A DNA stretch of 64,000 bases from Azolla caroliniana (GCA_043228905.1 JBHGNT010000004.1:6696001-6760000); one strand, 5' to 3'. Positions 7,879-58,002 are shown, numbered from the stretch's first letter. Notes: generated by a model from the letters alone, not told the origin. Program-made: numbers and translations.

Positions 7879-7883
7879 TAGAT

Positions 7884-18600: not shown

Positions 18601-19319
18601 CTCAGACGCATGGTGTTGACTACGAAGAGACCTTTGCCCCGGTGGAAAAGATGACGACGGTGCGGACCGTAATTGCGATTGCCGCGGCAAAAGGGTGGCA
18701 CCTCCATCAAATGGACGTCAAGAACGCCTTTCTACAAGACGAATTAGAAGAGGAGGTGTACATGATCCAACCACCCGGCTTCAACTCGAGCACCCATCCG
18801 AAGGCTGTTTGCCGACTCAAGAAGCCATTCTACGGCCTCAAGCAAGCACCGCGTCCTTGGCATTCGAAGATAACGCAATATCTTCATCAAATCGGTTTTC
18901 GTATGTCAAAATCGGACAACTCCCTCTACATACGAAGCGATTCCACAAGTCCGATTGTCATCATGTTATATGTGGATGACCTAGTCATTGGAGGTGAGCA
19001 TCTCGTCGAAATCAATAAAGTCAAATCCCTCCTTTCCGACAAGTTCGAGATGACGGACATGAAGGAGCTCCACTACTTCCTCGGCATCGAGGTAATTCGA
19101 ACTCCGACCGGAATCATGATCTCTCAACGGCACTACATCCTCAACTTGTTATACAGGTTCGGGATGGCTGAGTGCAAATCCGCAACAACCTCGCTGGATC
19201 GCAATCTGAAACTAGATGCGAACTCCGGCACCAAAGCGTGTGAGCCAACTCAGTATCGGCAACTCATCGGGAGTCTCATCTACCTCACGATCACACGACC
19301 TGATCTCAGTTATCCGGTC
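15623..19319 (+). pseudogene. Copia gag-PR-IN-RT polyprotein, left part (disrupted)
   Basis: ORF pieces 15623-16300, 16466-16780, 16895-17134, 17249-17449, 17489-18217 and 18342-19319 carry the copia motifs in order. Confidence 0.93.
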
Positions 19320-19326
19320 GATACCA

Positions 19327-19713
19327 TGTAAAGAATCAAGAGATGGATTCTTGTGAAGCGGAAGAGATGTGAGTTGTGTGTGTGTGTAAGAGAGAGTGAG
19401 AGAGAGAGAGAGAGAGAAACACAGAGAATACGCAAGGTAAGAGTATATTGACAAAGGAGAAAGACTCAACATATTACAAGGTGGGAGGAGGGTGCTTTAT
19501 GCAGTCACCCTCTCTCTTCATTAACTACAAGCCTCATGGAGCATGGGGAATGTGAAAGCTCATAAGTTATGTGTCATAGAATATGATTCTATGACTCATA
19601 CTAAATGCTAGAATACAAAGTGGTGACATAATGTTGACTCTTGACCGTTGGAGTGTCTCTTCACTCTCAAGGTGAGTTCACACACTAGACCAAGTTGAGC
19701 TTGATTCTCAACA
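19327..19713 (-). repeat. 3' LTR of inner copia
   Basis: Reverse complement of the outer LTR family, TG...CA, preceded on the minus strand by the PPT. Confidence 0.95.
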
Positions 19714-19834
19714 CGCCCCCTCAAGCTCAAGTCGGGTCGGTTTCAGACGGTATCCGAAATCCACTTCAACTCGCGTTCTGGAGTCCGCGTCGACTCGGGT
19801 CGACTCGCATGTATGCGGAGTTGCGGAATCCGTG

Positions 19835-19965
19835 CTCCAGCTTGCGTTGTGCGTAGTTACGAAGTCTGTGCTTCGGCTTGCGTGCGTAGTTGCGAAGTCT
19901 GTGCTTCAGCTTGCGTGCGTAGTTGCGAAGTCTGTGCTTCGGCTTGCGTGGTTGCGGAATCCACA
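19835..19965 (-). repeat. 33-bp tandem repeat in the copia 3' UTR
   Basis: About 3.5 copies of CTTGCGTGCGTAGTTGCGAAGTCTGTGCTTCGG. A related, shorter array lies at about 39730-39810 in the outer copy. Confidence 0.85.
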
Positions 19966-19967
19966 CG

Positions 19968-22900
19968 TTATTGCGTAGTGTCTTTAGTACTCCCCCTCAA
20001 GCTTGGCAGATCAGGGATCGTCAATCCGAGATCGGTCATGAATTTCCATAGCTTGTCGGCGCCTAAGGCTTTAGTGAAGATGTCGGCCGTTTGAAGATTG
20101 GTGCTTATGTGTTGTAGGTCGATATCGCCAGCTAGAACGCGCTCTCGGATGAAGTGATAGTGCACTTCGATGTGCTTTGTCCATGCGTGGAACACCGGGT
20201 TCTGAGCCAGATAAATACTTCTCATGTTGTCGCAGTAAAGGGGAGTCGGATCCTTGATGGGAACGCCCAAATCCTTCAAAATCCTCTTAAGCCATACGGC
20301 TTCACATGCAGCTACGGTTGCGCCCCTATATTCTGCCTCCGTACTCGAGAGAGCGACGGTAGGCTGCTTCTTGCTACTCCAGGATATTGCTCCACTGCCG
20401 AGGGAGAAAACAAATCCGGAGGTTGATCTTCTATCGGCTTTGTAGCCGGCCCAATCGGCATCTGTGTACCCCTCGAGTCATATTGGCATTTCGGTCTTGT
20501 AGAGGATGCCGCAATCCATTGTGCCGCTCACGTATCGTCGAACTCTCTTAGCGCAATCCAAGTGAGTATCACGCGGTGTTTGCATGAATTGACTAAGGAG
20601 ACCGACCGGATAACTAAGATTGGGTCGAGTGATCGTGAGGTAGATGAGACTCCCGATGAGTTGACGATACTGAGTCAGCTCACACGCTTTGGTGCCGGAG
20701 TTCGCATCTAGTTTGAGATTACGATCGAGCGGGGTTGCCACGGATTTGCACTCAGCCATCCTAAACTTGTACAGTAAGTTGAGGATGTAGTGATGTTGAG
20801 AAATCATGATTCCGGCTGGAGTCCGAATTACCTCGATGCCGAGGAAGTAGTGGAGCTCCTTCATGTCCGTCATCTCGAACTTGTCGGAAAGGAGGGATTT
20901 GACCTTAGTGATTTCGACGAGATGCTCACCTCCAATGACTAGGTCATCCACATATAAGATGATGACGATCAGACTTGCGGAATCGCTTCGTATGTAGAGG
21001 GAGTTGTCCGATTTGGACATACGGAAGCCGATTTGATGAAGATATTGTGTTATCTTCGAATGCCAGGCACGCGGTGCTTGCCTTAGGCCGTAGAGTGGCT
21101 TCTTGAGTCGGCATACGGCTTTTGGATGAGTGCTCGAGTTGAAGCCGGGTGGTTGGATCATGTACACCTCCTCTTCTAATTTGCCTTGTAGAAAGGCATT
21201 CTTGACGTCCCTTTGATGGAGGTGCCACCCTTTCGCCGCGGCAAGCGCAATTACAGTCCGCACCGTTGTCATCTTTGCCACCGGGGCAAAGGTCTCTTCG
21301 TAGTTGACGCCATGTGTCTGAGTGTATCCTTTCCCTACGAGTCGAGCTTTGTAGCGGTTGACGGAAACGTCCGCGTTGTACTTCACTTTGTAGATCCATC
21401 TGCATCCGATCGCCTTTTTGTGTGGTGAGGTGGGAACGAGATCCCATGTCTCGTTCTTCCGTAATGCCTCCATCTCATCGCTCATTGCTTCGATCCATCG
21501 CGGGTCCTTCGCAACTTCCGAAAAGGTTTCCGGCTCCCGTACTGTTGCTACCTTCATCATAAAGGCGTAATGGTACGCCATGTAATCGTTGTAGCCGAAT
21601 CGACTTACGGGGTTCTTTTCACAAGTGGATCGGCGGAGCTTTTCATTTGCAGAGATGAGGGCTTTCTTTGCTCCGATTGGTACCTCAAAACCGCTAAACT
21701 CACTGTCGAGTGAGTGAGTTGACTCATCGTCGGTGAAGCGATCGTCTTCGTATTCCGTCATTTTCGCCTTGCCTTTGTCCATCTTCGGGCTAGGCCGTGA
21801 TGTGCTTTGATCGCTCAAAGGCTCTTGTGGTCCGCTTAGTCGGGTCGTGATCGGACTTTCTTTGAACATGCCCGTAGAATGATCTTCATCCTCTATCTCT
21901 TGTTCAGCGGATTCTGGGTCGAGTGGAGTCGGAGTCAGAGTTGTCTCTGGTGCGTACCAGGATGCGGACTCGTCAAAGACGACGTCTCGACTTACCCAAG
22001 ATTTTCGAGTTGAGGGGTTGTAGCACTTGTACCCCTTTTGCTCTAGTGAGTATCCTACGAGGATACATTTCTCCGACTTCGGATCGAGCTTTTCACGCTT
22101 CTCGTCGGGGATGTGCACGTACGCAATGGAGCCGAATATCCGAACATGTGATAGGTTTGGCTTCTTTCCGAAGAATTTTTCGTGCGGAGTGACCTCGTGC
22201 ACGCCAGATGTTGTGCACCGGTTCATTAGGTAGACGGCCGTATTTGCCACTTCGGCCCAATATGACTTGGGCATATGCTTCTCGTTCATCATGCCCCGTG
22301 CTACTTTGAGGATATGCTGATTTTTGCGCTCGGCTACTCCGTTTTGTTGCGGAGTGTGTCAGCAAGTGAATTCTCGCCGAATTCCTTCCTTTCGGAGATA
22401 CGCCGTGAAATCATCCGAGAAGTACTCCTTGCCGCCATCCGATCGAAGGCATCGTACATGTCGGCCCGTGGCTTTCTCGACCTCATTCTTGAACTTTTGG
22501 AAGTGTCCGAACACTTCGCTTTGTTGCCGCATCGGATAGATCCAAGTGTGCCTAGAAACGTCGTCGATGAAGAGCACGTAATATCGGCATCCGCCGAATG
22601 TCGCCGTTTGGGCCAGACCCCATACATCGGAATGAATTACGTCGAGTACGCCTTTGCTCACATTTCGCTCCTTCGGGAATGGGTGTCGATGTTGCTTGCC
22701 GAATTGGCACGCTTCGCATACACCTTCAATCTCCTTCTCTTTGAATGTCGGGAGTCCGATAACGACTCCTTTCAATTTCATTGCTTTGAGTTTGTTGAGA
22801 TTGATGTGGCCGATTCGCTTCTGCCATAGCTCTATGTCGGAGTCGGCTTTCGTGCTTTTCGCGAACATGGCGGATTTAATCTCGTGCGAATCGAGAATGA

Positions 22901-23098
22901 AAATCTGACCCTCTCTTCTTCCGCGTGCAATGATTCGGCCTTCTTTTTCGATGAAGCACCCTTCTTGGTCGAATCGTACTTGCATCCCTTGCTCAATCAT
23001 TTGGCCGACCGAGACCAAATTCTTTGTGATGGTGGGAACATGCAAGACATTTTTAATGTATGTTTGCTTACCTCTTTCGCCGAACAGAACATTGCCGA
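19968..23098 (-). pseudogene. Copia PR-end/IN/RT/RNase H of the inner element (disrupted)
   Basis: ORFs 22359-23114, 20478-22292 (604 aa, YVDD) and 19968-20279 (QTADIFTK). Confidence 0.93.
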
Positions 23099-23532
23099 TG
23101 TCATGATATGGCAAGACTCGAACCCATGACCTTATACTACATGGGTCGAGCTCTTGACCATTAAACTATACATTGTAATACATAGAATATTATTTTCATT
23201 TATGTTTTATTATAGAAAATTGATGTATATTCTAGATTTCTCTGGAACATTCTAGAAACTTCAGGAGTATTCCTTAGAACACTATAAAAGGAGGCACAAG
23301 GCATTATTTCGAACCAAATCGGTTCAACGCCAGTCTTAAGCCTCCTAGCTACTGTACATTTTCTTCACATAATATATATATTTTCTTATCATCATTCTCT
23401 CTCTCTCTCTCGATCTCTCTCTCCCTCCCTCTCACTCACTCTTTCCTTCTCTCGAGAGTTCTTCACCTCTCTTAGTACTAATACTTCTTTTAGTACTAAT
23501 TCCTTCTCTGTCTTAGTACTGTTCCTGACAGT

Positions 23533-23545
23533 TTGAACCGATTTG
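23533..23545 (+). promoter_or_regulatory. Self-priming site complementary to the element's predicted transcript 5' end
   Basis: TTGAACCGATTTG is the exact reverse complement of CAAATCGGTTCAA at 23315-23327, about 30 nt downstream of TATAAAA (23283-23289). There is no TGG-type tRNA PBS. Confidence 0.88.
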
Positions 23546-24741
23546 CTACCTTCTGTCTCTCTCATTTCCTACTAATCTCTTATTCCTCTTTTCTTTCAGT
23601 CCATGGCCACTGTTAGCACTGAAGAATATCAATCTGTTTTCTCAGAATTTCAATGCTTCAAAGAGAAGTTCCATGCTTTGGAACAAGAAAACCAACGGTT
23701 GCTGGGGGATCTTCAGTAAATCTCCTTAGAAAAGTAGCAAACGCAACAACAGCATGGGGAACTTGCGTTACGCGTGCAACAACTCGAAGCAACCATCATA
23801 GCGATGCAACAACAAGGGCCCGGAACACAAGGGATTCATAAAGAACCCAAGATTGGCCTTCCCACGAAGTTTGATGGAACGTGATCGCAGTTTAGAGGGT
23901 TCCTTAACCAGGTACGATTAGTTATTCAAATGCATCCTTCCCGGTATCCCACCAATGCATCACGAGTGGGTTTAGTAGGCACTTTGTTAAGTGGCTCAGC
24001 GTTGGCATGGTTCGCTCCACTATTAGAAAAGGAATCCCCGTTACTCAACAATTTTGAAGAGTTTCTAGGTGAGTTTAAAGCATGTTTCGGAGATACTGAT
24101 AGCATCAGGACCGCAATCAACAAAATTTGGCGATTACGCCAAGGTGACCGTCCAGCCTCCGCATATGCTGTAGATTTTCGCCTACTCGCCGCTGATATCC
24201 CTTGGGATGATCAAGCGTTGATGGAGCAATTCCATTATGGTTTACGCAACAACGTCAAGGATTTACTCTTGACCTTCCCCGAAGAGCCAAAGTCCTTAAC
24301 AGAAGAAATCAGTCGCGCGGTGAGATGTGACAACCGCCTCTTTGAGCGACGTTCGGAACGACAACTACAGATGCCGAGGGCAAGATCAGAGCCCACCTAC
24401 GCCTCAGTGGTAGCAAGACCTTTTCCGAGGGAGTCATATAATGCGCCTCCAGCGAATACTCCGACTCTGATGGAGATTGACACTACACGTCGTCGAGGCC
24501 CATTATCCGAAGAAGAAAAGCAGTGACGCCGTACAAATCGACTATGTCTTTACTGCGGTGGACCAGGACATATTGCAATAAATTGCCCCCATAGGCCAAG
24601 AAGACAGGTAAACCAAATAGTCGCTAGTTCTAATTGTACTAAACCCGAGCCTATTTCAGTAGGGATATCTGATAGTCCTAATAGTACTAATAGCCCAGAT
24701 CTAGCAAACAGATTTGATGTCCTTAGTCAGTTAGAAGAAGA

Positions 24742-24793
24742 GTTAAACAACTAAGTCCAGCCAAAATAGGAGCCGTTTGGTTGGACAGCCCTA
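24742..24793 (+). promoter_or_regulatory. Putative -1 ribosomal frameshift signal (gag to pol)
   Basis: G-TTA-AAC just before the gag stop, a 6-nt spacer, then stem GTCCAGCCAAA/TTTGGTTGGAC, whose loop TAGGAGC can pair with GCCCTA. pol is in the -1 frame and open from the heptamer. Confidence 0.72.
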
Positions 24794-27700
24794 GATCTGT
24801 GCAACCCATTAGTGGTTCCATTCCCTCTAAGCAAGTTAGTGATGTGTTCGTAGCCCAAGTAATAGTTAGTACTAAAAGTACCCCTCCAGTACATGTCCTA
24901 GCACTCCTAGATTCCGGAGCTAACTCTTGCTTTATGGATAATAAATTTGCTCAAGCTCATAAGATATCCCTAAGAAAACTCCAGTGTCCAGCCTCTCTAG
25001 TAGTCATTGATGGACGTCCCATTGCTTCCGGAAATATCATAGAAGAGTCAGAGCCCATTAATATTGTCCTAGATAACTTAGCATGTGTAGTATCATTTAA
25101 TATTATTAGTATCCCAGAACATCCCATAGTTTTAGGATTACTGTGGTTCGAGTTACATAACCCAGACATAGATTGGAGAACAAGAGAAATCCGGTGTAGA
25201 CAAACCCAAGGGTCAACTCAGAAGATGGCAACCATTTCGCTACGTCAGTTGCGTAAAGAAGGGCACAAGGAGGAAATGTTCCTCTTTGCAATATCAGTAA
25301 ACCCCTCCAGCACCACTAAAGAAGGATCCACCGTTCAACTTCCCGAGAAGTATCGTCATTACGCCGATGTGTTCGATAAAGTACAAGCCAACACACTTCC
25401 TCATCATCGACCGTACGATTGCCCCATCGATTTACAACCGGTAAAAGAGCTGCCATGGGGACCGATCTACAATTTGTCACCAACCGAGCTGGAAGTCCTT
25501 CGGGCCTATATAGAGGAGAATTTGGAAAATGGTTTCATCCGGCACTCGAAATCTCCAGCCGGCGCGCCCATTTTCTTCGTCAAGAAAAAGGATGGATCGC
25601 TTCGTCTTGTTGTACATTACCGTGGCCTGAATAAGGTTACAATCAGGAATAGGTATGCTCTTCCCCTTATCTCAAGTCTTTTAGAACGGATCAATGGTGC
25701 CAGGTTCTTCACGAAGATCGACTTAGGGGGAGCATATAACCGCGTACGGATTCAACCAGGAGACGAATGGAAGACCGCGTTTCGCACCAGATATGGGCAC
25801 TTCGAGTATACAATCATGTCGTTCGGCCTCACTAATGCACCGGCAGTCTTCCAGCACATGGCTAAAGATATATTCCGAGATCTATTGGATGATTGTTTGA
25901 TCATCTATTTGGATGATCTACTGGTTTATTCAACGACCCAAGAAGAACATGATTCTCATGTACTATTAGTACTAAAACGACTTCGAGAACATGGTCTGTA
26001 TGCAAAGCTGGAAAAATGTAGTTTCGGGTGCAACCAAGTGGAATTTCTCAACTACATCATTTCGTCAGAAGGCATCTCCATGGACCCAGCTAAGGTCAAA
26101 ACGGTGGTAGAATGGCAGACTCCACGTTCGGTGCGGGATGTGCAATGCTTCCTAGGCTTTGCCAATTTTTACCGGAAGTTCATACAAGATTACTCAAAGA
26201 TCACAACTTACCAGGAAGGGACAACCGTTCATTTGGTCTAAAGAAACGGACGTGGCTTTCGAGAGTCTTAAAAAGGCATTTACATCAGCTCCAATTCTAG
26301 CTCATTTCGATTCGGAAAAACCATTTATTATCGAAGCTGACGCATCGGATTTTGCATTGGGGAGCATTCTGTCACAACAAGGGAATGATGAGAAGCTACA
26401 TCCTGTGGCGTTTCACTCACGCAAGTTTGACGCCGCCGAAATCAACTACGAAATTCATGATAAGGAGCTATTGGCAATAGTGGATTCTTTTATGCAATGG
26501 AGGTATTTTCTAGAGGGATCCTCTCATCCGGTCACCGTATTTCGTGACCACAAGAACCTTGCCTACTTTCAGGATGCTCGTGTGTTGAATCGACATCAAG
26601 CTCGGTGGGCCCACTTCCTCACGCGTTTCGACTTCAAAATTACATATCATCCGGGGAAGCACCAAGGGAAGGCCGATGCATTATCATGGCGTTCGTACCT
26701 AGCACCCCGTCCCGGCGAGCCAGCTTTCGATAACCAAAAACAAGTCATCTTGGGACCGGCACGACTACAAGCAACAAAGATCTTTGACATGCCCATGGAT
26801 TCCCGCGTTATTGATACCATACGCGAAGACTTGAAGACAGATGCGTTCGCCCAAGCTATACTAGCACAAATTGATCCCTCTCGAGCGTCGTGTTCACAAT
26901 CGCAACCACCAGGTACGGACTATCGGCAATTCAAATACCATGATGGATTACTCTTCTTTAAAGAACTTTTGTATGTTCCTAATGGTTCTTGCCGCCTTCA
27001 AGTAGTACAAAACTGTCATGACACATATACAGTTGGGCATTTTGGTAGTACTAAAACATTACATTTAGTACAACGATCATTCTGGTGGCCCTGTATGCGA
27101 CAATTTGTCGAGGATTTTGTTCGAACTTGTGATACATGTTGCAAAGCAAAAATGCCAAGGCATCATCCATATGGTTTATTAGAACCATTACCAATTCCAA
27201 GCAAGCCATGACAATCCATTGCTCTAAACTTCATCACAGATCTTCCAGTCTCTAAGGGGTTCAATGCGATTCTAACGGTGGTCGATCAATATACGAAGAT
27301 GGCTCATTTCTTGCCATGTACTAAGGAGATCTCCAGTGAAGACACTGCCGAAATTGTCATGCGTGAAGTATGTCGGCATCATGGACTTCCCGATAGTATC
27401 ATCAGCGACCGCGGACCCCAGTTCGTGTCAAAATTCTAGAAGCACCTTTTTAACATGCTCAAGGTCACTTGTAACCTCTCCTCCGGCTACCACCCACAAA
27501 CCGACGGCCATGTCGAACGAACCAATCAAACGCTGGAGCAATATCTGCGGTGCTTTCTCAGCTATCATCAGGATGACTGGGCAGATATTCACCACTTCGC
27601 CGAATTTGCCTATAACAACTCTATCCACGCATCCACGAAAGTTACGCCATTTTATGCTTATAAGGGATGTCACCCCCGGTGGTGTGTACTTGAAACCCCA

Positions 27701-28741
27701 GAGGTGTCCACAAATCCTTGCGCAGAGGATCGTTTGGAGAGGTTACGCAAGATACAGGCGGATTTATCTACTCATCTCCAACAAGCTCAACAAACACACA
27801 AGGTTTATGCGGATCGTCATCGACTCCCATCTAGTTTTAACATTGGAGATCGGGTATGGCTACTCCGACGACACATCAAGACTACTCGCCCATGCGAGAA
27901 GTTGGATTATCGGTGATTAGGTCCTTTCCGTATTATTGGAAAGATTAATGATGTCGCTTTTCGTCTTGATCTACCTCCACAACTTCGGATACATCCGGTG
28001 TTTCATAGTTCTCTCCTCGAACCCTATCAAGAAAGCACCATCCCAGGATGTATTACACAGCCTCCACCCCCGATTGAGCTTGAAGATGGACTTGAGTACG
28101 AGGTTGTCGCCATCCTTGATTCCAAGCTTGTTCGCAACAAGCTCTACTATCTAGTCGATTGGCTAGGATATAGTCCCAGCGAGCGTACTTGGGAACCGAT
28201 AGAGAATGTCACCAATGCTCGTGCTCTTCTTGAAGACTTCCATCGTCAATATCCAGACAAACCGGGTCCTCAATCCAAAACGACTCATTACACTCGTCAT
28301 TTTAAAGGGGGGATAGTGTCATGATATGGCAAGACTCGAACCCATGACCTTATACTACATGGGTCGAGCTCTTGACCATTAAACTATACATTGTAATACA
28401 TAGAATATTATTTTCATTTATGTTTTATTATAGAAAATTGATGTATATTCTAGATTTCTCTGGAACATTCTAGAAACTTCAGGAGTATTCCTTAGAACAC
28501 TATAAAAGGAGGCACAAGGCATTATTTCGAACCAAATCGGTTCAACGCCAGTCTTAAGCCTCCTAGCTACTGTACATTTTCTTCACATAATATATGTCTT
28601 TTCTTATCATCACTCTCTCTCTCTCTCTCGATCTCTCTCTCCCTCCCTCTCACTCACTCTTTCCTTCTCTCGAGAGTTCTTCACCTCTCTTAGTACTAAT
28701 ACTTCTTTTAGTACTAATTCCTTCTCTGTCTTAGTACTAAT

Positions 28742-29547
28742 TTCTTTATGGGATGTCATATGGTTTGAGGCTTCGGAGTCTACAAACCATACGTCCTCCG
28801 GATTGAGGGCACTAGTTGAGGTAGGGGCCGACATAGAGTTTGCTCTATGTTTCATCATGAACATTCCGCCACGGTCAGAGTTCCATGCATACATTCCGCC
28901 ACAATCTTCGTAGTCGGAGTTGTTCCCGTACATTGCACTATACTCCTCGTAGTTGGAATTGTGTGCGTAATTCGTGAGTTGTCAGCTTGTGGAAGCCGAT
29001 TCACGCATCTTCTTTCGGCACTCTTATTCGCGATGGCCAAGCTTTCCGCAATATCCGCATTCGGTTGCGTTTTGACGGCTCGGGCCGGATTGGAAGCTCC
29101 CCCTTCTTGCGAAGGTTCCTCGTTGGCCTCCGTTTTGCGGCCGAAATTGGGAGTTGTTGTCGTAGGTCGGACCTCGTCCGCCTTGTCTTTGGCCGAATCG
29201 GCCTCTCACTCGTACGCGTCCTCTTCCTCCATTAGAGTGCGTGTAGAGCATGTGGCCTTCCGACTCATTGCTCCTTGTACGCACGTGGCTTTCTTCGACC
29301 AATAGCATTGATTGGAGCTTGAAGAAGGAGGGAGATTTCTCCCGTGCTAGAACGGCGGTTCGCATCGCGCCGAACCGTGGTGCGAGGCCACCGAGGCATA
29401 TTTGCACCATCTCATCATCATCTATACTTATGCTTATTGAGCCGAGCGAGTCACAAAGCTCCTTGATCTTCAAGGTGTATGTCGTGATGGACATGTCCCT
29501 TTGTGGAATGTTGTTCAACTCTTGGCGGAGTTGAAGCTTCCTCGCGG
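28742..29547 (-). pseudogene. Inner copia gag (C-terminal part) to protease
   Basis: NNIPQRDMSITTYTLKIKELC...CGYCGKLGH...WFVDSEASNHMT. Confidence 0.9.
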
Positions 29548-32109
29548 TGTCGCGTTGTTACGCGCGTGCGTGGAGAAAGGCGGGACCACGGGGGTCTTGG
29601 ACTAGGGAGAGAGAGAGCGTAGGAAGTCGTGCTTCACTGTTTCTGGGGCATCCCGGAAGCACCCGAAGGGAGAGAGAGAGAGCTTAACACCGACTCACGC
29701 ACACACACGCACACACAGCCCAAGCCGACTCACGCCTTATGTACAGAAAACACAGGAGAGGTTAAGCACCCGACGCCAACAACGATGCGAATATACACAG
29801 ACAAACGTATATATATGTATATATAAAGGGAAGGATACATTCCCGGCGTCGAGCCGGACTGCAGGTAGGTTACAGTAGTCGTCAGCTGCCAAGCCGCCAT
29901 CGGGGAGCTCTCAGCTCGTCGCGCCGAGCGGGGTCTTGCACAGGAGGCCGAACCAAAGCAAACCCTAAGCAAACACGAGGGGGAAGAAGAAGGAGAAGAA
30001 GAAAACCTAACTCTAAACTTAACGGTATACCCTCTAATACAAAATGGGCAACCCTTTCACAAAGGGCGTTCATTTCCTTTTATAGAACAAGGAAAGGGAT
30101 GCGTTACAATGTGGGACAAATCCTGACTTACATGGGATTGTCTGTCCCGGCTTAACTACTCTTCGGCGCCATAAAGGCGCCCCCGATATTCACACCAAAT
30201 GTACATGGGTGCGTACACACGCTGCACCCTGCCGATGTAGCCAATGTTTTCCGGTTTCCGCCTCTGGCCGAAATTCTTCATGACATCCGCCCCCACCTAA
30301 CTGCACGTCCACCGGTATGTGCCAAATCTGGTTGAAGGGTGAGAGATTTCGGCCGGTGAGAAATCGGTCTCCCGTGATCCGCATCTCGGCTCGCTGCCGG
30401 TTTGATCCGTCGGCTCCGAGTCTTCCTTCGCGCTCGCCTCCCCGTAGGCTCGTTCGACCCGTCGATAGGTCCTCTGCCGCGATCTCCGTAGTACGCGTAC
30501 TTCCGTTGGCCCTTGTTCGGCCGTATGAACGCCCCGCTTCCCGTCGTAGGCCCAATGTCCTCCACTTGAGGCATGCCCGTAGTGGCCCGCTTGGCCTCCG
30601 TTGACCAACCGTGATGTCCTGATGTTGTTTCGAGTTGGCTTCGTCCTTTCGCCGCCACCTTCCTTCTCCATAGTCTTACATCGCCGCGTCGGCTCGAACC
30701 GCCATGGTCTCCGGAACGGTGTGGAGGGTCCCTTTTCCGGTCTTCTCCGCGCTTGCCTTCCCGCTCCGGCACCTCAGTGTGCCACATACCCTCGACCGTT
30801 GTTTGGCACTGCCTGTGCCGTACCCCGGTTCATTGCACGCCTCGTCGGCCCCTTTCCCGGCCAGATCGTGCATCGCCGCTCACCCGCATATCGGTGTCCT
30901 TTGCATCCGAGGAACACCCCGTAGTAGCCCGCTTGGCCCTTCCCATCTTCGTGCTGTGGCGATAGGTCTTGAGTCTTCCGCTTGCCGTCGTCCCCTCGCC
31001 CCACCAGCTTGTCACCCCCGGCTTGCCGTGTCAGTCTTCGCTACTTCGACGGAGCTACCGAGATCTACGAAGCGAGTGCGGAGGATCCTCCTCCGGCCTC
31101 TCTTGCCATCCCTTGACTCCGACCTTGTGCAGTCCACTAGGCACTTGTCCCCTCGTTCCCGGCACCTCCCTTGTGTCGTCGGGTCCTGTTCCTTGCCGCC
31201 ACCGTCCTTCTCCCTCGGTCTTACGTTGCCACGTTGGCCGAACAGCCGGAGTTTCCTGATCGGTGTGAGGGTCCCATAGGACCGGACTCCGTTTCTATGC
31301 TTGCCGAAATTCGTGTGACTTTTGTTTGAGTCCCTCCCGGACTCTCCTCGTGTCTTCCTCGTAGCCGGGTCCCGTTTCCCGCCGCCACCTTCCTTCTCCC
31401 TCGGTCTTACGTCGCCACGTTGGCCGAACAGCCGGAGTCTCTGGTTAAGTGTGGGGATCCCGTAGGACCAGACTTCCTTACGCCCATAGCCTTCATCACC
31501 TCGCCGCCACCGTCAGTATCTTGGTCTTACGTCGACCGCGTTGCCGACTGCCAGAGTCTCTAGAACCGGTGTGAAGGATCTTCCGTAGACCGCCGATTTC
31601 CCTTCCTTGCCTTCGTCACCTCGCCGCCACCATCAGTATCTTGGTCTTACGTCGAGCGCGTTGCCGACTGCCGAAGTCTCTAGAACCGGTGTGAAGGATC
31701 CTCCGTAGACCGCCGTCTTCCCGACCCTGTCCCGGGTCGTCCTTCTCCGCATGCCGAGAGGGTGGTTTACTCCGCACCCTCTCCCATGGTACCGACGTAC
31801 CGTGTCCTCGGCCTCTTCGTAGGCCTGCTCTCTTCCTCCCTCCCGGAATGGTCATCCGGGAGTCCGCTCCGCCCGGTTCTCACTCGGGTTCGTTCGTCTT
31901 CCCCCGGATTGCCGAGTCCCGTTCCCCTGTCGCCACCATCCTCTCTTGTCAGACTCACGCCGGCGCTCGGGCCTGCAGCCGGATCGGTGTAAGGAATCCG
32001 ATAGGACCAGTTTTCATTCTCTTTCCATATCTCGACCTTCGCCCGGTCGGTCTTTCTCCCCATGTAAAAGAGGGCGGCTCGTCCCGCACCCTCTCCCGTA
32101 TCGGCACCT

Positions 32110-33531
32110 CTATGCCGAATCCGACTTCGATCGAACGGTCCACGACCGGGTTACGCTCCACACGTATCGGAATGCCGATCTCCTCGTGCCGCTTCCGTCC
32201 TCAGACTCCTCGCAGGCCATTCCCCATCCGACTTCGCTGGCATCGTGCCAGGACTCCTCGGTACCGCTGTCCATCTCCTCGGTCTTACATGGGCATACGG
32301 GCCCGAATGCCGAGATCTCCGGAATCGGGTCCGTGGGCTTTCGTCCGTTCCTTCCCCGTATCATCTCGCCGGTGATTCTTGGTCTATCGCCGCCGCCTTC
32401 CTCCGCTTGGGACTTACGTGGGCACTCGGGCCCAACTGCCATCATCTCGGGAGAAAATGTGGGAAGACACAAAGAATCGCTCGTCCGTTTTACGCCCTTG
32501 TTCGTAGCCACCGACTCTTCGTGGTCGGCGGTCGTCTTCTTACCGATCACACAAGCCCCGTCTTGGCTCGCTTCTCCAACGACCGGGGTCTCGGGCTGAC
32601 ACGCCCGAAACCGCCGGTCCCAACGTTCCGGTTCCGCGATCTGTATCTCGGCCTCGTCCTTGGCCGTTCTTTCTCCGCAAGTCGAGAGGGCGTTTCGTTC
32701 CACACCCTCTCCCGTGGTACCGTCGTACCTATCTTCCGCCGTCACGTGGCGCAAGTCCGTCTTCTCAATCTCGGCTTGTGGCTCCCGTCTTTCCTCTTCC
32801 TCGAGCATCGCCTCGAGAGCTGCGTACACCTCCGCAATCCTGGCCTCAACGCCAACCCTTGCCGACTCTTTTTGTCATTCGGCCTCTTCCCGCTGTGATG
32901 GCACGCCGTCGCGTCCCTTCCTCTTAGCCTTCTCGGCTCGCTCTTTGTCTAACCGTTGGCACACCCTTCCGACCTTTGACCAGTCCTCCGTAAGCCCATT
33001 CGCTCCGTCATCGTCTTCAAGCTCAATCCCGATGGCCTCCCGTTCCGCTCGGTCGATCGACCTGACGAACAATAGGACCTTGTCCGCCCCCACCAAACCT
33101 TGTTCCCACTCTGGGAGCCGAGCAAGCTGTCGCTCGAACTCTCAGAACGCCTTCGTCGCACCCCGATGGGTCTTTGCCGATGCTACCCACTGGTCGAAGT
33201 CGTGCCCTCCCCGGCTCTTCCGCCGTCCTCAGTATGCCTTCAGGAGCGCCTCTTCGAAGGCCTCACGGAGCTCCTTTACTTCCGCATGCATCCGGACAGC
33301 TACGACCCGGCAGAAGAACTCCAGCCTCAATGCCTCGTCTACGCCACACTCCTCCATTTCCGCGTTGTAGGCTTCCAAGTATGATGGGACTTTGTCCCCG
33401 TTGAAACGGCCGACTCTATCGACCACTCGCTCAACCGCTTGTTGCGCTGCTTCTCGCCTCATCACCACTCGTGCCGATTCCAACACCACTTCAGCCACCA
33501 TCTCCGCAAGGCCGTCGTCTTCCGACTCCAT
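32110..33531 (-). pseudogene. gag-like remnant plus low-complexity extension (unit 2)
   Basis: MESEDDG...VERVVDRVGRFNGDKVPSYLEAY...LRLEFFCRV, then GADKVLLFVRSID...LTEDWSKV. Frameshifted. Confidence 0.65.
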
Positions 33532-33568
33532 CCTCCCTTGCCGCCTTTCACGTCGGGTTCACCAAATA

Positions 33569-34245
33569 TGTCGTGTTGATACGCGCGTGCGTGGAGAAAG
33601 GCGGGACCACGGGGGTCTTGGACTAGGGAGTGAAGGAGAAAGATTAGCTCAAGAGGAGAAGAGAACGAATATGACATTATGATAGAAGAAGAAGAAGATG
33701 CAATCAAGATACTCAACAAAAAGTTCTATTAAGAAATGAATGATTACAACAATGGTGGCCGCCATGGCCGCACCAAACGACTATATGAAAAACCCTAAAG
33801 GAAAACCCAAGAAGAAAACCCTAACCAAAACCCTAACCCTAAAACGAAATGGGAAGAAGGAGAACCCTCGACTAAGTGGTATACCTTACTCACACAAAAT
33901 AGGCAACCCCCACAATGGTTCCTTCTCTCTCCTTTTATAGCACAAGGAGGGAAGACCGTCTACAAAAGTGAGACTAAAATATCCCCCTTTCATTCAAAGG
34001 GAATATTTGCCTTGATTTGGGGGAGGGTGAGATTGATGGCCCCCTTAACTCCCACCTCCTCACAAACAACTAGGTACCTATGTACCGCATAGTACCTCTC
34101 TCTCTCGCGTGGATGTGCGTACAACCACATCACCTTTATACCTTTATTACTATTACAAATACATTATGTACGTGTGCAACGTTGCACATTGCTCTTTGGC
34201 TCTCGTTGCTCAGGTTTCCGCTTGTGGACGAAAATCTTCACAACA
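33569..34245 (-). repeat. Middle LTR (subtype B) of the three-LTR element
   Basis: TG..CA ends. It shares about 60 bp at the U5 end and the terminal U3 bases with the outer LTRs, and is otherwise strongly diverged. It is flanked by a PPT (34246-34260) and a PBS (33547-33564). Confidence 0.88.
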
Positions 34246-36124
34246 TCTGCCCCCACCTAACCGCACATCCTCCGGTATGTGCCAAAACATACGGGAGAGA
34301 ACACGAGATTTTCGGCCACGACGACCGACGAGTCCTTAGCGTCCTCGTGGGCCCGCCCGGCTTTGTCTTCCACTTCGAGTAAGACCACCCCGTCCACACG
34401 AACCACCGCCGACTTCCGTCCCACCATCCTCGCCGAATGGTCTCAAACCGTCGGCACCATCCGATCCGCCACACTCGACGATGTTTGCCGAGTCGTTGCC
34501 TCCACCCGATCCGCCATGTCCACCGTGGGTCCTTGAACCACCGACTACATCCAACCCGCCGTATCCGATGCCCGTGTTTTCCTCCCCGTTCGGTCCTCCC
34601 GAACGTCGTCGCCGACTCGGTTGCTCTTCCTTTGTCCGCCTTGTATATCCTCTGGATGCGCTCCCGGTCGCATGCCGGATTCCGCCCTTTGCATGCCGCA
34701 CACCTCGGTGTGCCGACTCTCTCCGCTCCGCGCTTGCCTTCCGTAGGCTTTCCCCGTATGTCGATGTTGCCCTCCGAATGCGTGCTCGTGCTTCGGTCCT
34801 TCGATGACCCCATCACGCGTTTTTCGCTTTCCCCTTTTTCGTCGTGCTCTCTCGTAGTACAGTGTATCGTCATCCCGACCTCTGTGTCGGTGTCCCTCGA
34901 GGCTCTCGTTATCGCCTCACCTCGACTTGCGCCCTCTTGGCCCGCTTGGCCTTGTATGCCCTCCGGGAAGCCGCCGCGCTTTCTCTTCCCGGTGTGTACC
35001 CCGTTGTTCTCCGCACATCTCCTCCGTTTTCCTAGATACGACTCTCCGCTCATGCCGATCACGCTCGGCCCATGTCGTCGATCTTGGTGGTTCGTCGTGC
35101 CGTCCTTCGTCCCGCGCTTGCCTCTCGAAGGCTTGACCCGACCGTCATCGTCGGTCAATTGTTGTCGCCCATCCGCCGTATGCATGCTTGTGTCTTGGCC
35201 CTCCATCGTCCGTATTACATGCGTCTCGTGTCGTGCTTCTGCCGTAGACCCGACCTCCGCGTCGGTCTCCAACTCCTCGCCGCCACCCACCGCTTCTTTG
35301 TTCTCCTTTCGATCCGCGACCGCCGATGCCTCACGGGTAGGTGTGGAGGGTTCCTCCCACTCTCGGTTCACCACCGAGTCCTCGCCTCTCAAAGGCTCAA
35401 TCGGTCCACCGTTTCCGGTCACTTGTTGACGCTCTCTCGGATGCATGCTCGTTCTTGGGCCCTTCACCAACCATAGTGCATGCTTCGTGTTACACCCTTC
35501 ATCCACCGTAGACCTGACCTCCGCGTCGGCCACTTCTTCCTTTGTCACCGTAGCCCGTTCCGACCCGAGCTCGCCATTTTGGACCCTCTCGTCCATCATC
35601 TCATACCGGATACCCACTCTGATATCTCTGTCCGCTTCGGCCTCCGACTCCTCGCCGCCACCCGTTGTCTCTCCGGTCTCACGTTGATCCACAACCGCCG
35701 AAGTCTCTAGAATGGTTGTGGAAGGTCCCTCTCGCTCTCAGTCTTCTAGCAAGCCGTGATCACCGTGCCCACTAGGCCTCCTTCTCGCTCTCACCGGCTC
35801 CCACCGTAACCGTGCCCGGCCAGCTACGAATCGATCAAACAATCCCAGTCTTGCCGGCTTCCTTCGGTTCATGCCCGGTTGACCGGCCCCCGCTTCACTC
35901 TTCTTCCGCTCCGCCTCCCGGTCGGGTCGGATTACCGACCGCCTCATCTTTCGGTCGGGTCGGTTCCCGACTCGCTCCTCGATGCCGCTCCGGACCGCTC
36001 CTTCGGTCTTTTCGCACGTGCCCACTCCGGGCCTCTCATCCTCACGGCCACCGCCCATCTCCTCGGTCTTATGTCCGCGCTCAGACGCAACCGCCGAAGT
36101 CTCCGGCCCCGGTGTCGAGGGATC

Positions 36125-37354
36125 TCACCTCCGTCCGCTACAAACCTCCTCTTCGTCATTTCGGTTGCCCGCCTTGCTGCCGCCACCATCCGTCTCTCTA
36201 GGTCTCACACCGGCTCTTGGGCTGGTTGCCGGAGTCCCTAGGACCGGTGTGTGGAAGGTCGCGGCACCGCCGCTCGTCTCCTCTTCTTCCTCGACTTCGC
36301 AAGCCTCAAGTATGCTCGCGAAATTCTCGTAGAACGTTTCGGGCAACCGCGTCCCGAAACTTTTGCCCACTCTCGAAGTGGCATCCATTGCTCCGTAGAT
36401 ATCGGCCTCATCCATGGCCGTCCTCTTTCCACAAGTCGAGAGGGTCGCTCGCTCCGCACCCTCTCCCACATCGTCGCCATCGTGGTCGCCCGCCTTGCTG
36501 CCGCCACCGCCCGTCACTCTAGGTCTCACAACGGCTCTCGGGCCGGTTGCCAGAGTCTCTAGGCCCGGTGTGCGTAAGGTCGCAGCACCACCGCCCGTCT
36601 TCTCCCCGCTCGATGTTTCGGGCCTCCATGCCCGACCTCCCTCATGTCCGCTCGAATCGGCGATCGCCGCCTCACCGTCCCCGACCTCGTCCTCGGTCGA
36701 TCTTTCTCCGCATGTCGAGAGGGTGGCTCGCTCCGCACCCTCTCCCGTGGTACCGATGTACCATTCTCTTTCGGCCTCCTCATCCTCCGATCGCCTCTGG
36801 CCTGACTCCATAATAAGCCCTTCTTCGGCTTCGATTTTCCCCTTCACAAGCTCGCATGCCTCCCGTATTAGCGCTTCTAGGTCAAGCTCCTCCGAACCGT
36901 TTTGCGTTGAGCTCTCTTCCGGCGGTAGTGCATACTCACTCGCCGCTCTCTCTTCTCCGCCGTTCGTGGGCCATGTTGTTGCCGACCGCTCCCCATCGGG
37001 TTGCCCGCATACCCACTCCGGTTTCGCGTATCCGTACGCTTCCAATAAAGCTCCCTCGAAGGACTCCCATGACTCGTGAGCTTCTCGTAGCTCCTTGACA
37101 TCCTTCTGCACCTATACGGCCGCCACTCGCGGAAAATACTCTAGTCGCATCGCCTCGTCCACGCCCCCTTTCGCCATCTCGGCCTTCTAGGCTCCCAAAA
37201 TTTTTAGGACCTCATTCCCATTGAACCGGCCGACTCGATCGACCACCCTTTCGACGGCTTGTTGAGCCGCATCTCGCTTCACCATCTTTCATCCAGCTTC
37301 CATCACGATCTTTGCCATCATCTCCTTGAAGTCAAAGTCTTCTTCCATCTCCAT
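36125..37354 (-). pseudogene. gag-like remnant fused to an acidic low-complexity extension (unit 1)
   Basis: MEMEEDF...AVERVVDRVGRFNGNEV...AMRLEYFPRV...SWESFEGALLEAY with three in-frame stops, then an open E/G/T-rich tail. Confidence 0.65.
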
Positions 37355-37369
37355 GCTCCCTTGCCGCCT

Positions 37370-37387
37370 TTCACGTCGGGTTCACCA
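37370..37387 (-). promoter_or_regulatory. Primer binding site complementary to tRNA-Trp (second copy 33547-33564)
   Basis: The plus strand reads TTCACGTCGGGTTCACCA, the 3' 18 nt of plant cytosolic tRNA-Trp including CCA as I recall it, 4 nt inside the LTR. Confidence 0.85.
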
Positions 37388-38608
37388 AATATGTCGCGTT
37401 GTTACGCGCGTGCGTGGAGAAAGGCGGGACCACGAGGGTCTTGGACTAGGGAGAGAGAGAGAGCGTAGGAAGTCGTGCTTCACTGTTTCTGGGGCATCCC
37501 GGAAGCACCCGAAGGGAGAGAGAGAGCTTAACACCGACTCACGCACACACACGCACACACAGCCCAACCCGACTCACGCCTTATGTACAGAAAACGCAGG
37601 AGAGGTTAAGCACCCGACGCCAACAACGACGCGAATATACACAAACAAACGTATATATATGTATATATAAAGGGAAGGATACATTCCCGGCGTCGAGCCG
37701 GACTGAGGTAGGTTACAGTAGTCGTCAGCTGCCAAGCCGCCGTCGGGGAGCTCTCAGCTCGTCGCGCTAAGCGGGGTCTTGCACAGGAGGCCGAACCAAA
37801 GCAAACCCTAAGCAAACACGAGGGGGAAGAAGAAGGAGAAGAAGAAAACCTAACTCTAAACTTAACGGTATACCCTCTAATGCAAAATGGGCAACCCTTT
37901 CCCAAAGGGCGTTCCCTTCCTTTTATAGAACAAGGAAAGGGATGCGTTACAATGTGGGACAAATCCCGACTTACATGGGATTGTCTGTCCCGACTTAACT
38001 ACTCTTCGGCGCCATAAAGGCGCCCCCGATATTCACACCAAATGTACATGGGTGCGTACACACGCTGCACCCTGCCGATGTAGCCAATGTTTCCCGGTTT
38101 CCGCCTCTGGCCGAAATTCTTCACGACAGCGGTCGTGTTGTCGGCAAAAATCTTTCGTAGATTTTCCCACGCTTCCTTCGGCGTCTTGGCTTCTCGAATG
38201 TAACCGAGCATGTGGTCGTGAACACATGTCGCCAAACAATACATCACGCGGCTTGCGGCTTGCGGCTTGCTCCCATGTCGCGTATCCAAGAGCCGCTTCG
38301 GCGGGTCGGTCTTCATGCGCTCCTTTGATGTAGCTCCAATAGCCTTGTCCGACAAGGTATTGGTGCATCTTGTACTCCCAAGATGCGAAGTTGTTTCGAT
38401 CCAACTTCTCGGTAGGGAGAGTGCTCCCCATTTGAGTATTCATTATATCGATTCTTCTTCTTCTTCTTCTTCTTCTCTCTTCGAATGCGAGCTATGTAGC
38501 GAAGCTACGATAGCTATGAGCCGGTTCTTGGTCGTCGGCGTAGAGCACAACACACGATCACGATGAGGCGAATGGGCTAGATCGAGCTACCAAATCGCTC
38601 TAATACCA

Positions 38609-38988
38609 TGTAAAGAATCAAGAGATGGATTCTTGTGAAGCGGAAGAGATGTGAGTTGTGTGTGTGTGTAAGAGAGAGTGAGAGAGAGAGAGAAACACAG
38701 AGTATATGCAAGGTTTAGTATATTAACAAAGGAGAAAGACACGACATGATACAAGGTGGGAGGAGGGTGCTTTATGTAGTCACCCTCTTTCTTCATTAAC
38801 TACAAGACTCATGGAGCATGGGGAATGTGAAAGCTCATAAGTTATGTGTCATAGAATATGATTCTATGACTCACACTAAATGCTAGAATACAAAGTGGTG
38901 ACATAATGGTGACTCTTGACCGTTGGAGTGTCTCTTCACTCTCAAGGTGAGTTCACACACTAGACCAAGTTGAGCTTGGTTCTCAACA
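38609..38988 (-). repeat. 5' LTR of inner copia
   Basis: TG..CA on the minus strand, followed by an iMet-type PBS at 38597-38608. Confidence 0.95.
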
Positions 38989-39000
38989 CGCCCCCCTCAA

Positions 39001-39625
39001 CCAATTCATGCAAACACCGTGTGATACTCACTTGGATTGCGCTAAGCGAGTTCTACGCTACGTAAGCGGCACAATGGATTGTGGCATCCTCTACAAGACC
39101 GCAATGCCAATACGACTCGAGGGGTACACAGACGCCGATTGGGCCGGCTACAAAGCTGATAGAAGATCAACCTCTGGATTTGTTTTCTCCCTTGGCAGCG
39201 GAGCAATATCCTGGAGTAGCAAGAAGCAGCCTATCGTCGCTCTTTCGAGTACGGAGGCGGAATACAAGGGCGCAGCCGTAGCTGCGTGTGAAGCCGTATG
39301 GCTCAAGAGGATTTTGAAGGATCTGGGCGTACCCATCAAGGATCCGACTTCCCTTTACTGTGACAACATGAGCAGTATCTATCTAGCTCGAAACCCGGTG
39401 TTCCACGCGCGGACAAAGCACATCGAAGTGCACTATCACTTCATCCGAGAGCGCGTTCTGGCTGGCGATGTCGACCTACAACACATTAGCACCAATCTTC
39501 AAACGGCCGACATCTTCACTAAAGCCTTAGGAGCCGACAAGCTATGGCAATTCATGACCGATCTCGAATTGACGATCCCTGACCTGCCAAGCTTGAGGGG
39601 GAGTACTGAAGACACTACGCAATAA
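39001..39625 (+). pseudogene. Outer copia RT end and RNase H (right part)
   Basis: QFMQTP...GYTDADWAG...SSTEAEY...YCDN...QTADIFTK continues the RT interrupted at 19319. Confidence 0.93.
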
Positions 39626-39920
39626 CGCGTAGATTCCGCAACCGCGCACTACACGATAACGTGTGGATTCCGCAACCACACAACGAAGCAGCGAAGAGCT
39701 AATCTACCGCGCAAAGCCGCGAAGAAAGACACAAGCCGAAGTACAGACTTCGCAACTATGCACGCAAGCCGAAGCACAAACTTCGTAACTTCGCACAACG
39801 CAAGCTGGAGCACAGATTCCGCAACTCAGCATAAAGCGAGTCGACGCTGACTCCGGAACATGAGTTGAAGCGGATTTCGGATACCATCTGAAACCGACCC
39901 GACTTGAGCTTGAGGGGGCG

Positions 39921-40306
39921 TGTTGAGAATCAAGCTCAACTTGGTCTAGTGTGTGAACTCACCTTGAGAGTGAATAGACACTCCAACGGTCAAGAGTCAC
40001 CATTATGTCACCACTTTGTATTCTAGCATTTAGTGTGAGTCATAGAATCATATTCTATGACACATAACTTATGAGCTTTCACATTCCCCATGCTCCATGA
40101 GTCTTGTAGTTAATGAAGAAAGAGGGTGACTACATAAAGCACCCTCCTCCCACCTTGTATCATGTCGTGTCTTTCTCCTTTGTTAATATACTAAACCTTG
40201 CATATACTCTGTGTGTGTGTGTGTGTGTCTCTCTCTCTCTATCTTATACACACACACAGTTCACACCTATTCCGCTCCACAAGAATCCATCTCTTGATTC
40301 TTTACA
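39921..40306 (+). repeat. 3' LTR of outer copia
   Basis: TGTTGAG..TTTACA, preceded by the PPT and followed by TSD TCAAG. Confidence 0.96.
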
Positions 40307-40819
40307 TCAAGGATTAGATGCACTTTGGGATTAGTTTGAGAATGAACAAAAGTTACAAACACTTCAAAATCTCTATTTGTCATGTATTGTCCTCCATTGG
40401 AATAACTCCAACCAACTCACACTCACTTTAGTCCGTGATTTGACTAGCGTTAAACTTTGGTAATTTACGAACCTCGTCTTCTCTTTCACTTTTCTAGATC
40501 CAGTTAACTTCGAAAATTAGTCAATCTACGACAATTCCCCTTGTCCCCTCGAATTTTGTTTCTTCTCCTATAACTAGAACATAACAAAGAGATTACAATA
40601 GATCGGGCAATAGCAATTTTTCGTACATGTAGGCCTTGGCCCCACGGACCACGACCCCAACACCCTTGTCATCGATAGATAAAGGCCATTATCTCCCACC
40701 ATCATAGGTGCTTCCCTCACGTCAAAGACCTCTCCATCTTGGATCGGCCTATGTTAGAAATCTTTCGAAGTCAAAATTTATAATACATTTAACTTGAGAA
40801 TCTCATGTGTTGAAAACCA

Positions 40820-57986: not shown

Positions 57987-58002
57987 GCTCAACTTGAGGT
58001 TT

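What the first reader, a model, noticed from the sequence alone, without database searches (positions are those of the whole stretch)
19310..39010. Full-length copia captured with both reverse-transcription primer sequences still attached and no TSD
Seen: the inner element reads PPT(TTGAGGGGGGCG, 38989-39000)-LTR-PBS-gag-pol-PPT-LTR-PBS(TGGTATC, 19326-19320). Integrase products end exactly at TG...CA with a TSD. Here there is no TSD, and about 10 bp of the target (GTCTCCTTAG in the sister RT) are deleted, with 1-nt microhomology on the left. The outer PPT has six Gs versus five in both genuine PPTs, and the outer PBS matches tRNA-iMet better than the element's own PBS (TGGTATT). Known: PPT and tRNA-derived extensions arise in retroviral cDNA when RNase H fails to remove primers, and such ends are poor integrase substrates. 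Inference: this is a genomic fossil of an unprocessed cDNA inserted by end joining at a break inside a same-family element, an integrase-independent route for whole LTR elements.
Basis: partly seen in the sequence, partly recalled or inferred. Interest (0 to 1): 0.8.

Follow-up and report, generated by a model that had tools for sequence, protein, structure and literature searches.

The report
Retrotransposon copy glued in without integrase
A whole jumping-gene copy, likely from a fern, sits backwards inside a relative with short primer-matching tails on both ends and no insertion scar, so it was likely an untrimmed DNA copy patched into a break by host repair, a route shown in yeast and HIV experiments and here likely preserved in a plant genome.

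Summary
The structure is in the sequence. A complete Ty1/copia element (minus strand, about 5.5 kb without two later nested elements) interrupts the RT of a same-family element that has its own 5-bp TSD. It carries a 12-nt PPT-like tail before its 5' LTR and a 6-nt PBS tail after its 3' LTR, has no TSD, and replaces 10 target bases (intact site seen in four public runs). Two breakpoints this close to LTR ends are unlikely by chance (about 1e-5).

Corrections: the 'C' said to favour tRNA-iMet is also the target's next base, so it proves nothing; the sixth G is not diagnostic; read support remains open. New here: the inner 5' LTR was partly overwritten by the host's nearby 3' LTR (15 of 15 diagnostic sites), likely by later gene conversion.

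Best reading (0.7): end-joining capture of a primer-tailed cDNA at a break. Known in kind (Tf1 tails, Ty1 and HIV capture at induced breaks), but it lacks the homology of the Tf1 route, and my searches found no natural full-length plant case. One dead copy; moderate interest.

The parts
15156..15160 (+). Left 5-bp TSD (TCAAG) of the outer (host) copia
   Evidence: matches 40307-40311
15161..15478 (+). Outer 5' LTR; U5 end and PBS lost by a deletion ending in a TG run
15479..19320 (+). Outer leader, gag, protease, integrase region and RT up to the break
   Evidence: Pfam gag, Pol_BBD, SH3, RVT_2; alignments with the inner element
19320..19320 (.). 1-nt microhomology: G on + is both the target's next base and the C of the PBS tail
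19321..19326 (-). PBS tail TGGTAT directly after the inner 3' LTR
   Evidence: absent from the intact target
19327..19713 (-). Inner 3' LTR, TG...CA, with family-majority alleles at four tested sites
19714..19724 (-). Inner genuine PPT (five Gs)
19725..23098 (-). Inner 3' UTR, RNase H region, RT, integrase, part of protease
   Evidence: RVT_2, SH3, gag_pre-integrs, rve below its cut-off; about 9% from the outer copy
23099..28738 (+). Nested Ty3/gypsy element; LTRs 0.7% apart; 3' LTR end, TSD and about 80 nt of inner protease removed by a later deletion
28739..29547 (-). Inner gag, 3' part
29548..38128 (.). Nested 8.6-kb LTR element, 4-bp TSD GCGG, LTRs 2.2% apart, no Pfam hit in 7 of 7 ORFs tested
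38129..38596 (-). Inner leader and gag 5' part, 1.9% from the outer copy
38597..38608 (-). Inner own PBS TGGTATTAGAGC
38609..38988 (-). Inner 5' LTR, TG...CA, mosaic
38695..38933 (-). Tract of the inner 5' LTR identical to the outer 3' LTR (outer limits; diagnostic sites about 38703-38909); likely gene conversion
   Evidence: 15 of 15 diagnostic sites; table 3: outer-type alleles at 0.5% or less of family depth in run X1
38989..39000 (-). PPT-like tail TTGAGGGGGGCG (six Gs) directly before the inner 5' LTR
39001..39920 (+). Outer RT end, RNase H region, 3' UTR and PPT (39910-39920), resuming 10 nt after the left break
39921..40306 (+). Outer 3' LTR, an inverted repeat of the inner 5' LTR 932 nt away
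40307..40311 (+). Right 5-bp TSD (TCAAG) of the outer copia

Best explanation
The inner element is a whole copia with primer-matching tails at both ends and no TSD, and it is likely a finished cDNA with untrimmed ends that host end-joining likely ligated into a double-strand break in an older same-family copy, with 10 target bases lost. Steps: (1) Reverse transcription likely left the PPT primer on the plus strong-stop DNA, so the minus strand copied 11-12 nt of it, and the plus strand ran past the LTR into the tRNA primer or PBS (inferred; such tails are measured for Tf1). (2) The CA ends were thereby buried, and integrase likely could not use them (inferred). (3) The molecule was joined blunt or nearly blunt, with 1 nt of microhomology on the left and none beyond chance on the right, in the opposite orientation to the host (junctions shown; enzyme pathway unknown). 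(4) Two other LTR elements later inserted inside it (shown). (5) The host's 3' LTR, now an inverted repeat 932 nt away, likely overwrote about 210-240 nt of the inner 5' LTR by gene conversion (mosaic shown; process inferred). It is a dead, one-off repair fossil.
For: Both extensions start exactly at the LTR termini and stop within 12 and 6 nt; chance 1.3e-5 for two random breakpoints. No TSD, and a 10-nt target loss against the intact site in the sister copy and in 4 of 4 public runs. The host element has a clean TSD and its two halves resume 10 nt apart. Inner LTRs differ at only 1 substitution outside the host-type tract against 14 inside it (post-hoc Fisher p 0.0025), so they look like one cDNA's pair. 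The inner 5' LTR also keeps a minority allele (17% of family depth in X1) shared only with the inner 3' LTR at column 55, so its start and the PPT tail were not simply copied from the host's 3' LTR. Timing is bracketed: host LTRs 2.1% apart, a nested element 2.2%. Tf1 cDNA keeps PBS (about 50%) and PPT (about 20%) tails (PMC11042837). Ty1 pieces captured at breaks carried cDNA-only extra bases in 40 of 56 3' LTR cases (PMC11372161). HIV DNA enters I-SceI breaks (PMC3605128).
Against: The tRNA-specific base cannot be shown: it is shared with the target. Later deletions do erase TSDs at this locus, as at the nested gypsy, so a missing TSD alone is weak. The target is the same family and the two 5' halves are much closer (1.9% and 4.2%) than pol (7-12%), which simple random capture does not explain. 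No empty allele of this particular host copy was seen, so a chromosomal break is inferred, not shown. It is a single event.
Confidence: 0.7

Rival explanations
1. Composite made before integration: the inner cDNA was captured inside the host's cDNA in the same particle or integration complex, by end-joining or by RT jumping from the host's nascent minus strand onto the 3' end of the inner minus strand, copying it to its tRNA end and jumping back. Integrase then inserted the roughly 11-kb composite once, giving the single TCAAG TSD.
For: The bottom strand reads as host minus strand, then inner plus strand from PPT to PBS, then host minus strand. The target is the same family. Leader and gag 5' differ by 1.9%, like the LTR pairs here (2.1-2.2%). 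Ages are not separable. Unreviewed notes on the same genome describe other copies rearranged before insertion (not tested).
Against: Pol differs by about 9%, and divergence rises 1.9, 4.2, 12, 11, 9, 9, 7% along the element. Gag differences are not significantly more neutral than pol differences (N:S 14:11 against 82:100, p 0.39). Same-family nesting is common without any special mechanism (PMC6911290). An RT jump needs one cDNA finished while another has barely begun (inference).
Confidence: 0.11
2. Integrase did insert it, using cryptic CA dinucleotides inside the tails (one or both ends), and a later small deletion or host repair removed the TSD.
For: The PPT tail ends one base after a CA on the minus strand (39000). 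A full tRNA-type PBS has a CA at its 7th-8th base (seen in the other copia at 61061). A nested gypsy here lost its TSD by deletion.
Against: It needs a G-to-A change at exactly 39000 plus a 16-nt deletion; base 39000 already matches the PPT without any change. The left tail stops short of that CA. It still requires a primer-tailed cDNA.
Confidence: 0.08
3. Genomic recombination: the segment was copied from a tandem LTR-internal-LTR-internal-LTR array or a 1-LTR circle, or gene-conversion tracts ran a few bases past each LTR end and replaced normal flanks.
For: Conversion between LTRs likely happened here and is frequent in plants (PMC7251063 abstract). Tandem elements are the main product of the Tf1 integrase-independent route.
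Against: Both breakpoints must fall within primer length of LTR ends (1.3e-5). The inner-type allele at LTR column 55 lies between the host-type tract and the PPT tail. The tail has six Gs, the host PPT five.
Confidence: 0.06
4. Assembly artefact joining two copies of a high-copy family.
For: The family is very abundant in public contigs. No independent confirmation was obtained.
Against: Two junctions 19.7 kb apart fall 10 nt apart on the same target. The host TSD matches across 25 kb. A nested element has its own TSD. Neighbouring LTRs share alleles that are rare in the family. A misjoin would not be expected to make primer-length tails (inference).
Confidence: 0.05

Closest known systems
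Integrase-independent insertion of Tf1 (Li et al. 2022, PMC11042837; outline and sections 8, 9, 12, 13 read)
   Same: cDNA ends carry single-stranded PBS and PPT copies; insertion needs no integrase; pre-existing relatives are the main target.
   Different: Tf1 uses Rad52 annealing at sites homologous to PBS, PPT or LTR, giving mostly direct tandems and, as the authors speculate, truncations. Here the target has 1 nt of homology, the orientation is inverted, the site is mid-RT, and both ends are whole with both tails kept.
Ty1 cDNA capture at double-strand breaks by NHEJ (PMC11372161; abstract start and passages read)
   Same: [quoted passage not shown]
   Different: The passages read describe fragments, mostly 3' LTR, in an amplicon assay in yeast. 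Here a whole 5.5-kb element sits in a plant genome assembly.
HIV-1 DNA at induced breaks and aberrant ends (PMC3605128, section 5 and passages; HIV section of PMC11042837; PMC12478370 passages)
   Same: Viral DNA with unprocessed ends enters breaks; PBS bases appear beside integrase-independent proviruses; PPT retention extends U3 when RNase H cleavage fails.
   Different: Cell-culture events, often under integrase inhibition or mutation; both tails on one whole insertion were not described in the passages read.
Same-family nesting and LTR gene conversion in plants (PMC6911290 passages; PMC7251063 abstract only)
   Same: Elements nest in their own family; nested LTR pairs often look older than their hosts, attributed to conversion.
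   Different: Those are treated as integrase products. Here the conversion donor is identifiable: the host's inverted 3' LTR 932 nt away.

Membership tests
Ty1/copia LTR retrotransposon (inner element) | Paired LTRs with TG...CA ends | tested here: met
   38988-38609 and 19713-19327
Ty1/copia LTR retrotransposon (inner element) | PBS after the 5' LTR and PPT before the 3' LTR | tested here: met
   the tRNA-iMet assignment is recalled, and no tRNA gene was available to compare (0 tRNAs in the window)
Ty1/copia LTR retrotransposon (inner element) | Domain order gag, protease, integrase, RT with RVT_2-type RT | tested here: met
   RNase H had no Pfam hit and is placed by position and recalled motifs
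Canonical integrase product | Ends flush at TG...CA with a 4-6 bp TSD | tested here: not met
   Inner: tails of 12 and 6 nt, no TSD, 10-nt loss. The outer element does meet it at its outer ends.
Tf1-type single-strand-annealing insertion | Target homologous to PBS or PPT | tested here: not met
   1 nt on the left; the intact target matches the PPT only partly
Tf1-type single-strand-annealing insertion | Direct tandem at an LTR of a pre-existing copy | tested here: not met
   Inverted, inside RT
Tf1-type single-strand-annealing insertion | Rad52 dependence | not testable with these tools
   needs genetics
End-joining capture of retroelement cDNA at a break | No TSD, small target deletion, little or no homology | tested here: met
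End-joining capture of retroelement cDNA at a break | Extra terminal bases found only in cDNA | tested here: met
   PPT-like and PBS tails at the LTR termini; a tRNA-specific base could not be shown
End-joining capture of retroelement cDNA at a break | Break lay in the chromosome (empty allele of this host copy) | not testable with these tools
   No genome held; contigs too short to tie the RT site to this locus
Synthesis-dependent microhomology end joining | Junction-spanning repeat with a nearby copy, above chance | tested here: inconclusive
   Left 4-5 nt (null 65% and 28%), right 6 nt (null 34%) in 1500 simulated junctions each

The most novel reading that the evidence does not exclude
The host and the inner element entered the chromosome together: reverse transcriptase jumped from one nascent minus strand onto the free end of a second, finished, primer-tailed cDNA, copied it end to end and jumped back, and integrase inserted the 11-kb double element under one TSD. 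Nested same-family elements could then be born in the particle, not stacked later, and primer-tailed, TSD-less whole elements would be a searchable class in plant genomes.
Probability: 0.1. Interest if true: 0.7.

Novelty: new variant of a known kind. Interest (0 to 1): 0.42.

Why it matters
A December 2025 review (PMC12786077, passages read) treats integrase-independent retrotransposition in plants as inferred from tandem arrays and from yeast. A whole element with both primer tails and no TSD is a direct, searchable signature (PPT before the 5' LTR, TGGTAT after the 3' LTR). It would let one count how often plant repair, not integrase, fixes full LTR elements; pipelines that demand a TSD discard such elements. 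The locus also shows conversion distorting an LTR age (4% against about 2%) with an identifiable donor. Limits: one dead copy, a mechanism known in kind, and junctions not yet read-verified.

Tried and rejected
Read support. One run search (18 runs listed) and two lays on 4 of those 18 runs (X1, X2, X3, X7; short-read contigs). In one search (38945-39055) no listed contig bridged the right junction in any of the 4 runs. The longest pieces were 50-51 nt and stopped at 38995 or began at 39001; 32 pieces were shown and 742 were not. The tool says a hole proves nothing, and the samples may be other individuals, so this neither supports nor refutes.

No whole genome is held, so no genome-wide scan for other tailed elements.

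Metagenome scan for the LTR end: 1 of 23 loci was a related LTR (about 80% identical), with no PBS tail after it; uninformative.

Hairpin at the break site: z 0.23, 0.33 and -0.14; 47% of 616 pol windows fold at least as well; rejected.

Templated-repair signatures: not above the null.

The 9-nt deletion at the same RT site in the 62.9-kb fragment as a family allele: 0 of 58 related RT proteins with a readable motif lack the three residues, and 62 of 120 were not matched by the pattern. Not supported, left unexplained.

N:S test for a shared origin of the two gag halves: p 0.39.

Sixth G as proof of RT slippage: later replication slippage fits equally.

Ten literature searches listed no plant report of a whole element with both tails. 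The library lacks most subscription papers, and no supplements were read; they may hold such junctions (for example the carrot and Arabidopsis cDNA papers, passages only).

Earlier-finding look-ups by words, sequence and near place were empty.

Full report
**Setting.** The window is plant DNA, likely from a fern. The neighbouring NO VEIN exon (45219-47528) is 54-55% identical to Adiantum and Ceratopteris proteins, 37-47% to the other named plants listed, and 59-65% to two unnamed proteins. No whole genome is held. Self-comparison and Pfam give the anatomy. An outer copia on the + strand runs from 15161 to 40306 with the TSD TCAAG on both sides; its 5' LTR has lost U5 and the PBS. Inside its RT lies a second copia of the same family on the minus strand, 19320-39000. 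That element holds a gypsy element (23099-28738, LTRs 0.7% apart) and an 8.6-kb LTR element (29548-38128, TSD GCGG, LTRs 2.2% apart). Without them it is about 5.5 kb.

**Junctions.** On the minus strand the inner element begins TTGAGGGGGGCG (39000-38989), then TG of the 5' LTR. Both genuine PPTs read the same with five Gs. It ends at CA of the 3' LTR (19327) followed by TGGTAT(C). The sister RT shows GTCTCCTTAG between the two flanks. Family contigs in 4 of 4 runs laid give those 10 bases as the loose end before 39001 (X7's row has one variant base). So there is no TSD and 10 bases are lost. Two random breakpoints both within 18 nt of LTR ends would occur at about 1.3e-5.

The C that makes TGGTATC differ from the element's own TGGTATT is base 19320, which is also the target's next base. 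It cannot show a tRNA template; only six bases are surely insert-derived. The sixth G is in the window but could arise by slippage at any time. Repeats across either junction are no longer than in simulated junctions, so the end-joining pathway cannot be named.

**The inner 5' LTR is a mosaic.** The inner LTRs differ by 4%, more than the host's 2.1%, although the inner element cannot be older than its host. Fourteen of the 15 substitutions, and one indel, lie in columns 80-287, where the inner 5' LTR equals the host's 3' LTR at 15 of 15 sites, with no difference over columns 56-295. Two of these (columns 200 and 283) are shared with the host's 3' LTR but not its 5' LTR. In run X1 the host-type alleles make up 0.02% (column 200), 0.04% (115), 0.2% (246) and 0.5% (248) of summed family depth (table 3; depth is not a copy number, and 48 of 88 rows were not shown). 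Column 55 and U5 are inner-type; the column-55 allele is a 17% minority. The two LTRs are inverted repeats 932 nt apart, so conversion after insertion is the simplest cause. Conversion and older-looking nested LTRs are reported as common in plants (PMC7251063, abstract only). Outside the tract the inner LTRs differ at one site besides microsatellite length, as expected for one cDNA. The inner-type allele between the tract and the tail argues that the PPT tail was not copied from the host.

**Relation of the two elements.** In the RNase H region the inner element carries the family-majority base at 10 of 11 sites where the host does not (the 11 were picked from the 40 rows shown). Divergence between them is 1.9% in leader and gag 5', 4.2% in mid gag and 7-12% in pol (5' half against pol p 2e-10). 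N:S does not differ significantly (14:11 against 82:100, p 0.39). The similarity of the 5' halves is therefore unexplained: family recombination, a second conversion, or co-packaged RNAs all fit. The inner insertion is bracketed between the host (2.1%) and the 8.6-kb nested element (2.2%), so the events were close in time.

**Mechanism.** Shown: tails, no TSD, 10-nt loss, 1-nt microhomology, inverted orientation, mosaic LTR. Inferred (0.7): failed primer removal gave a cDNA with PPT and PBS extensions, integrase could not use the buried CA ends, and host end-joining placed it in a break. Rivals: a composite formed before a single integration (0.11); integrase at cryptic CAs with later loss of the TSD (0.08; the nested gypsy shows such loss); copying from a tandem, a circle or overlong conversion tracts (0.06); misassembly (0.05). 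Read support is still open.

**Comparison with what is known.** Tf1 cDNA retains PBS and PPT tails and inserts without integrase by Rad52 annealing, mostly as tandems at Tf2 (PMC11042837, sections 8, 9, 12, 13). This locus has the same kind of ends but fails that route's tests: no target homology, no direct tandem. It fits end-joining capture better. Ty1 3' LTR pieces at breaks carried cDNA-only bases in 40 of 56 cases (PMC11372161, passages). HIV DNA enters I-SceI breaks (PMC3605128, section 5). PPT retention extends HIV U3 when RNase H cleavage fails (PMC12478370, passages). Plant cDNA ends are joined by NHEJ into 2-LTR circles (PMC9324142, passages). A 2025 review gives only tandem arrays as the plant evidence for integrase-independent insertion in the passages read (PMC12786077). 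Same-family nesting is ordinary in some families (PMC6911290, passages). Ten searches listed no natural whole plant element with both tails; the library is incomplete and no supplements were read.

**Verdict.** Real in the assembly, likely a repair fossil of an untrimmed cDNA, and a new variant of a known process. Its value is as a signature that can be counted genome-wide. One dead copy without read confirmation does not establish a route. Interest 0.42.

Noticed in passing
window 62943-62945 (minus strand): A more distant copia RT fragment (about 81% identical) has a 9-nt deletion at the same RT site as the 10-nt loss in the host element, one of only two deletions of 7 nt or more in about 1.38 kb. 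No significant hairpin, and not seen in 58 of 58 readable related proteins. Unexplained; possibly a recurrent break site.
   Followed up: partly
window 60647-64000: Another copia (LTR from 60647, PBS TGGTATCAGAGC at 61061, gag, integrase on +) switches at about 62535 to an RT/RNase H fragment on the minus strand: a second inverted structure in this window.
   Followed up: partly
window 29548-38128: 8.6-kb LTR element with 738-nt LTRs, 4-bp TSD, internal repeats and no Pfam hit in 7 of 7 ORFs tested; looks non-autonomous.
   Followed up: no
window 15138-15160: An 11-nt direct repeat with 12-nt spacing (GCATTATCAAG) lies directly before the outer 5' LTR and includes the TSD.
   Followed up: no
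window 38976-39004: A base private to the inner 5' LTR among the four LTRs (column 10) completes a 6-nt inverted repeat with the right junction; not above the null.
   Followed up: yes
window 28730-28745: The nested gypsy's 3' LTR lacks its last ~10 nt and TSD, with about 80 nt of inner protease gone: a later deletion.
   Followed up: partly
window about 41500-47500 (minus strand, possibly further right); 3991-4590 (+): Host genes: NO VEIN with long exons and an alpha/beta hydrolase piece.
   Followed up: partly
window 57700-58480: Pieces of LTRs and a PPT of related copia families in both orientations, next to a gypsy-like LTR start.
   Followed up: no
window 7880-8836: 400-nt inverted repeat pair at 95.5% identity, possibly a DNA transposon or MITE.
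   Followed up: no
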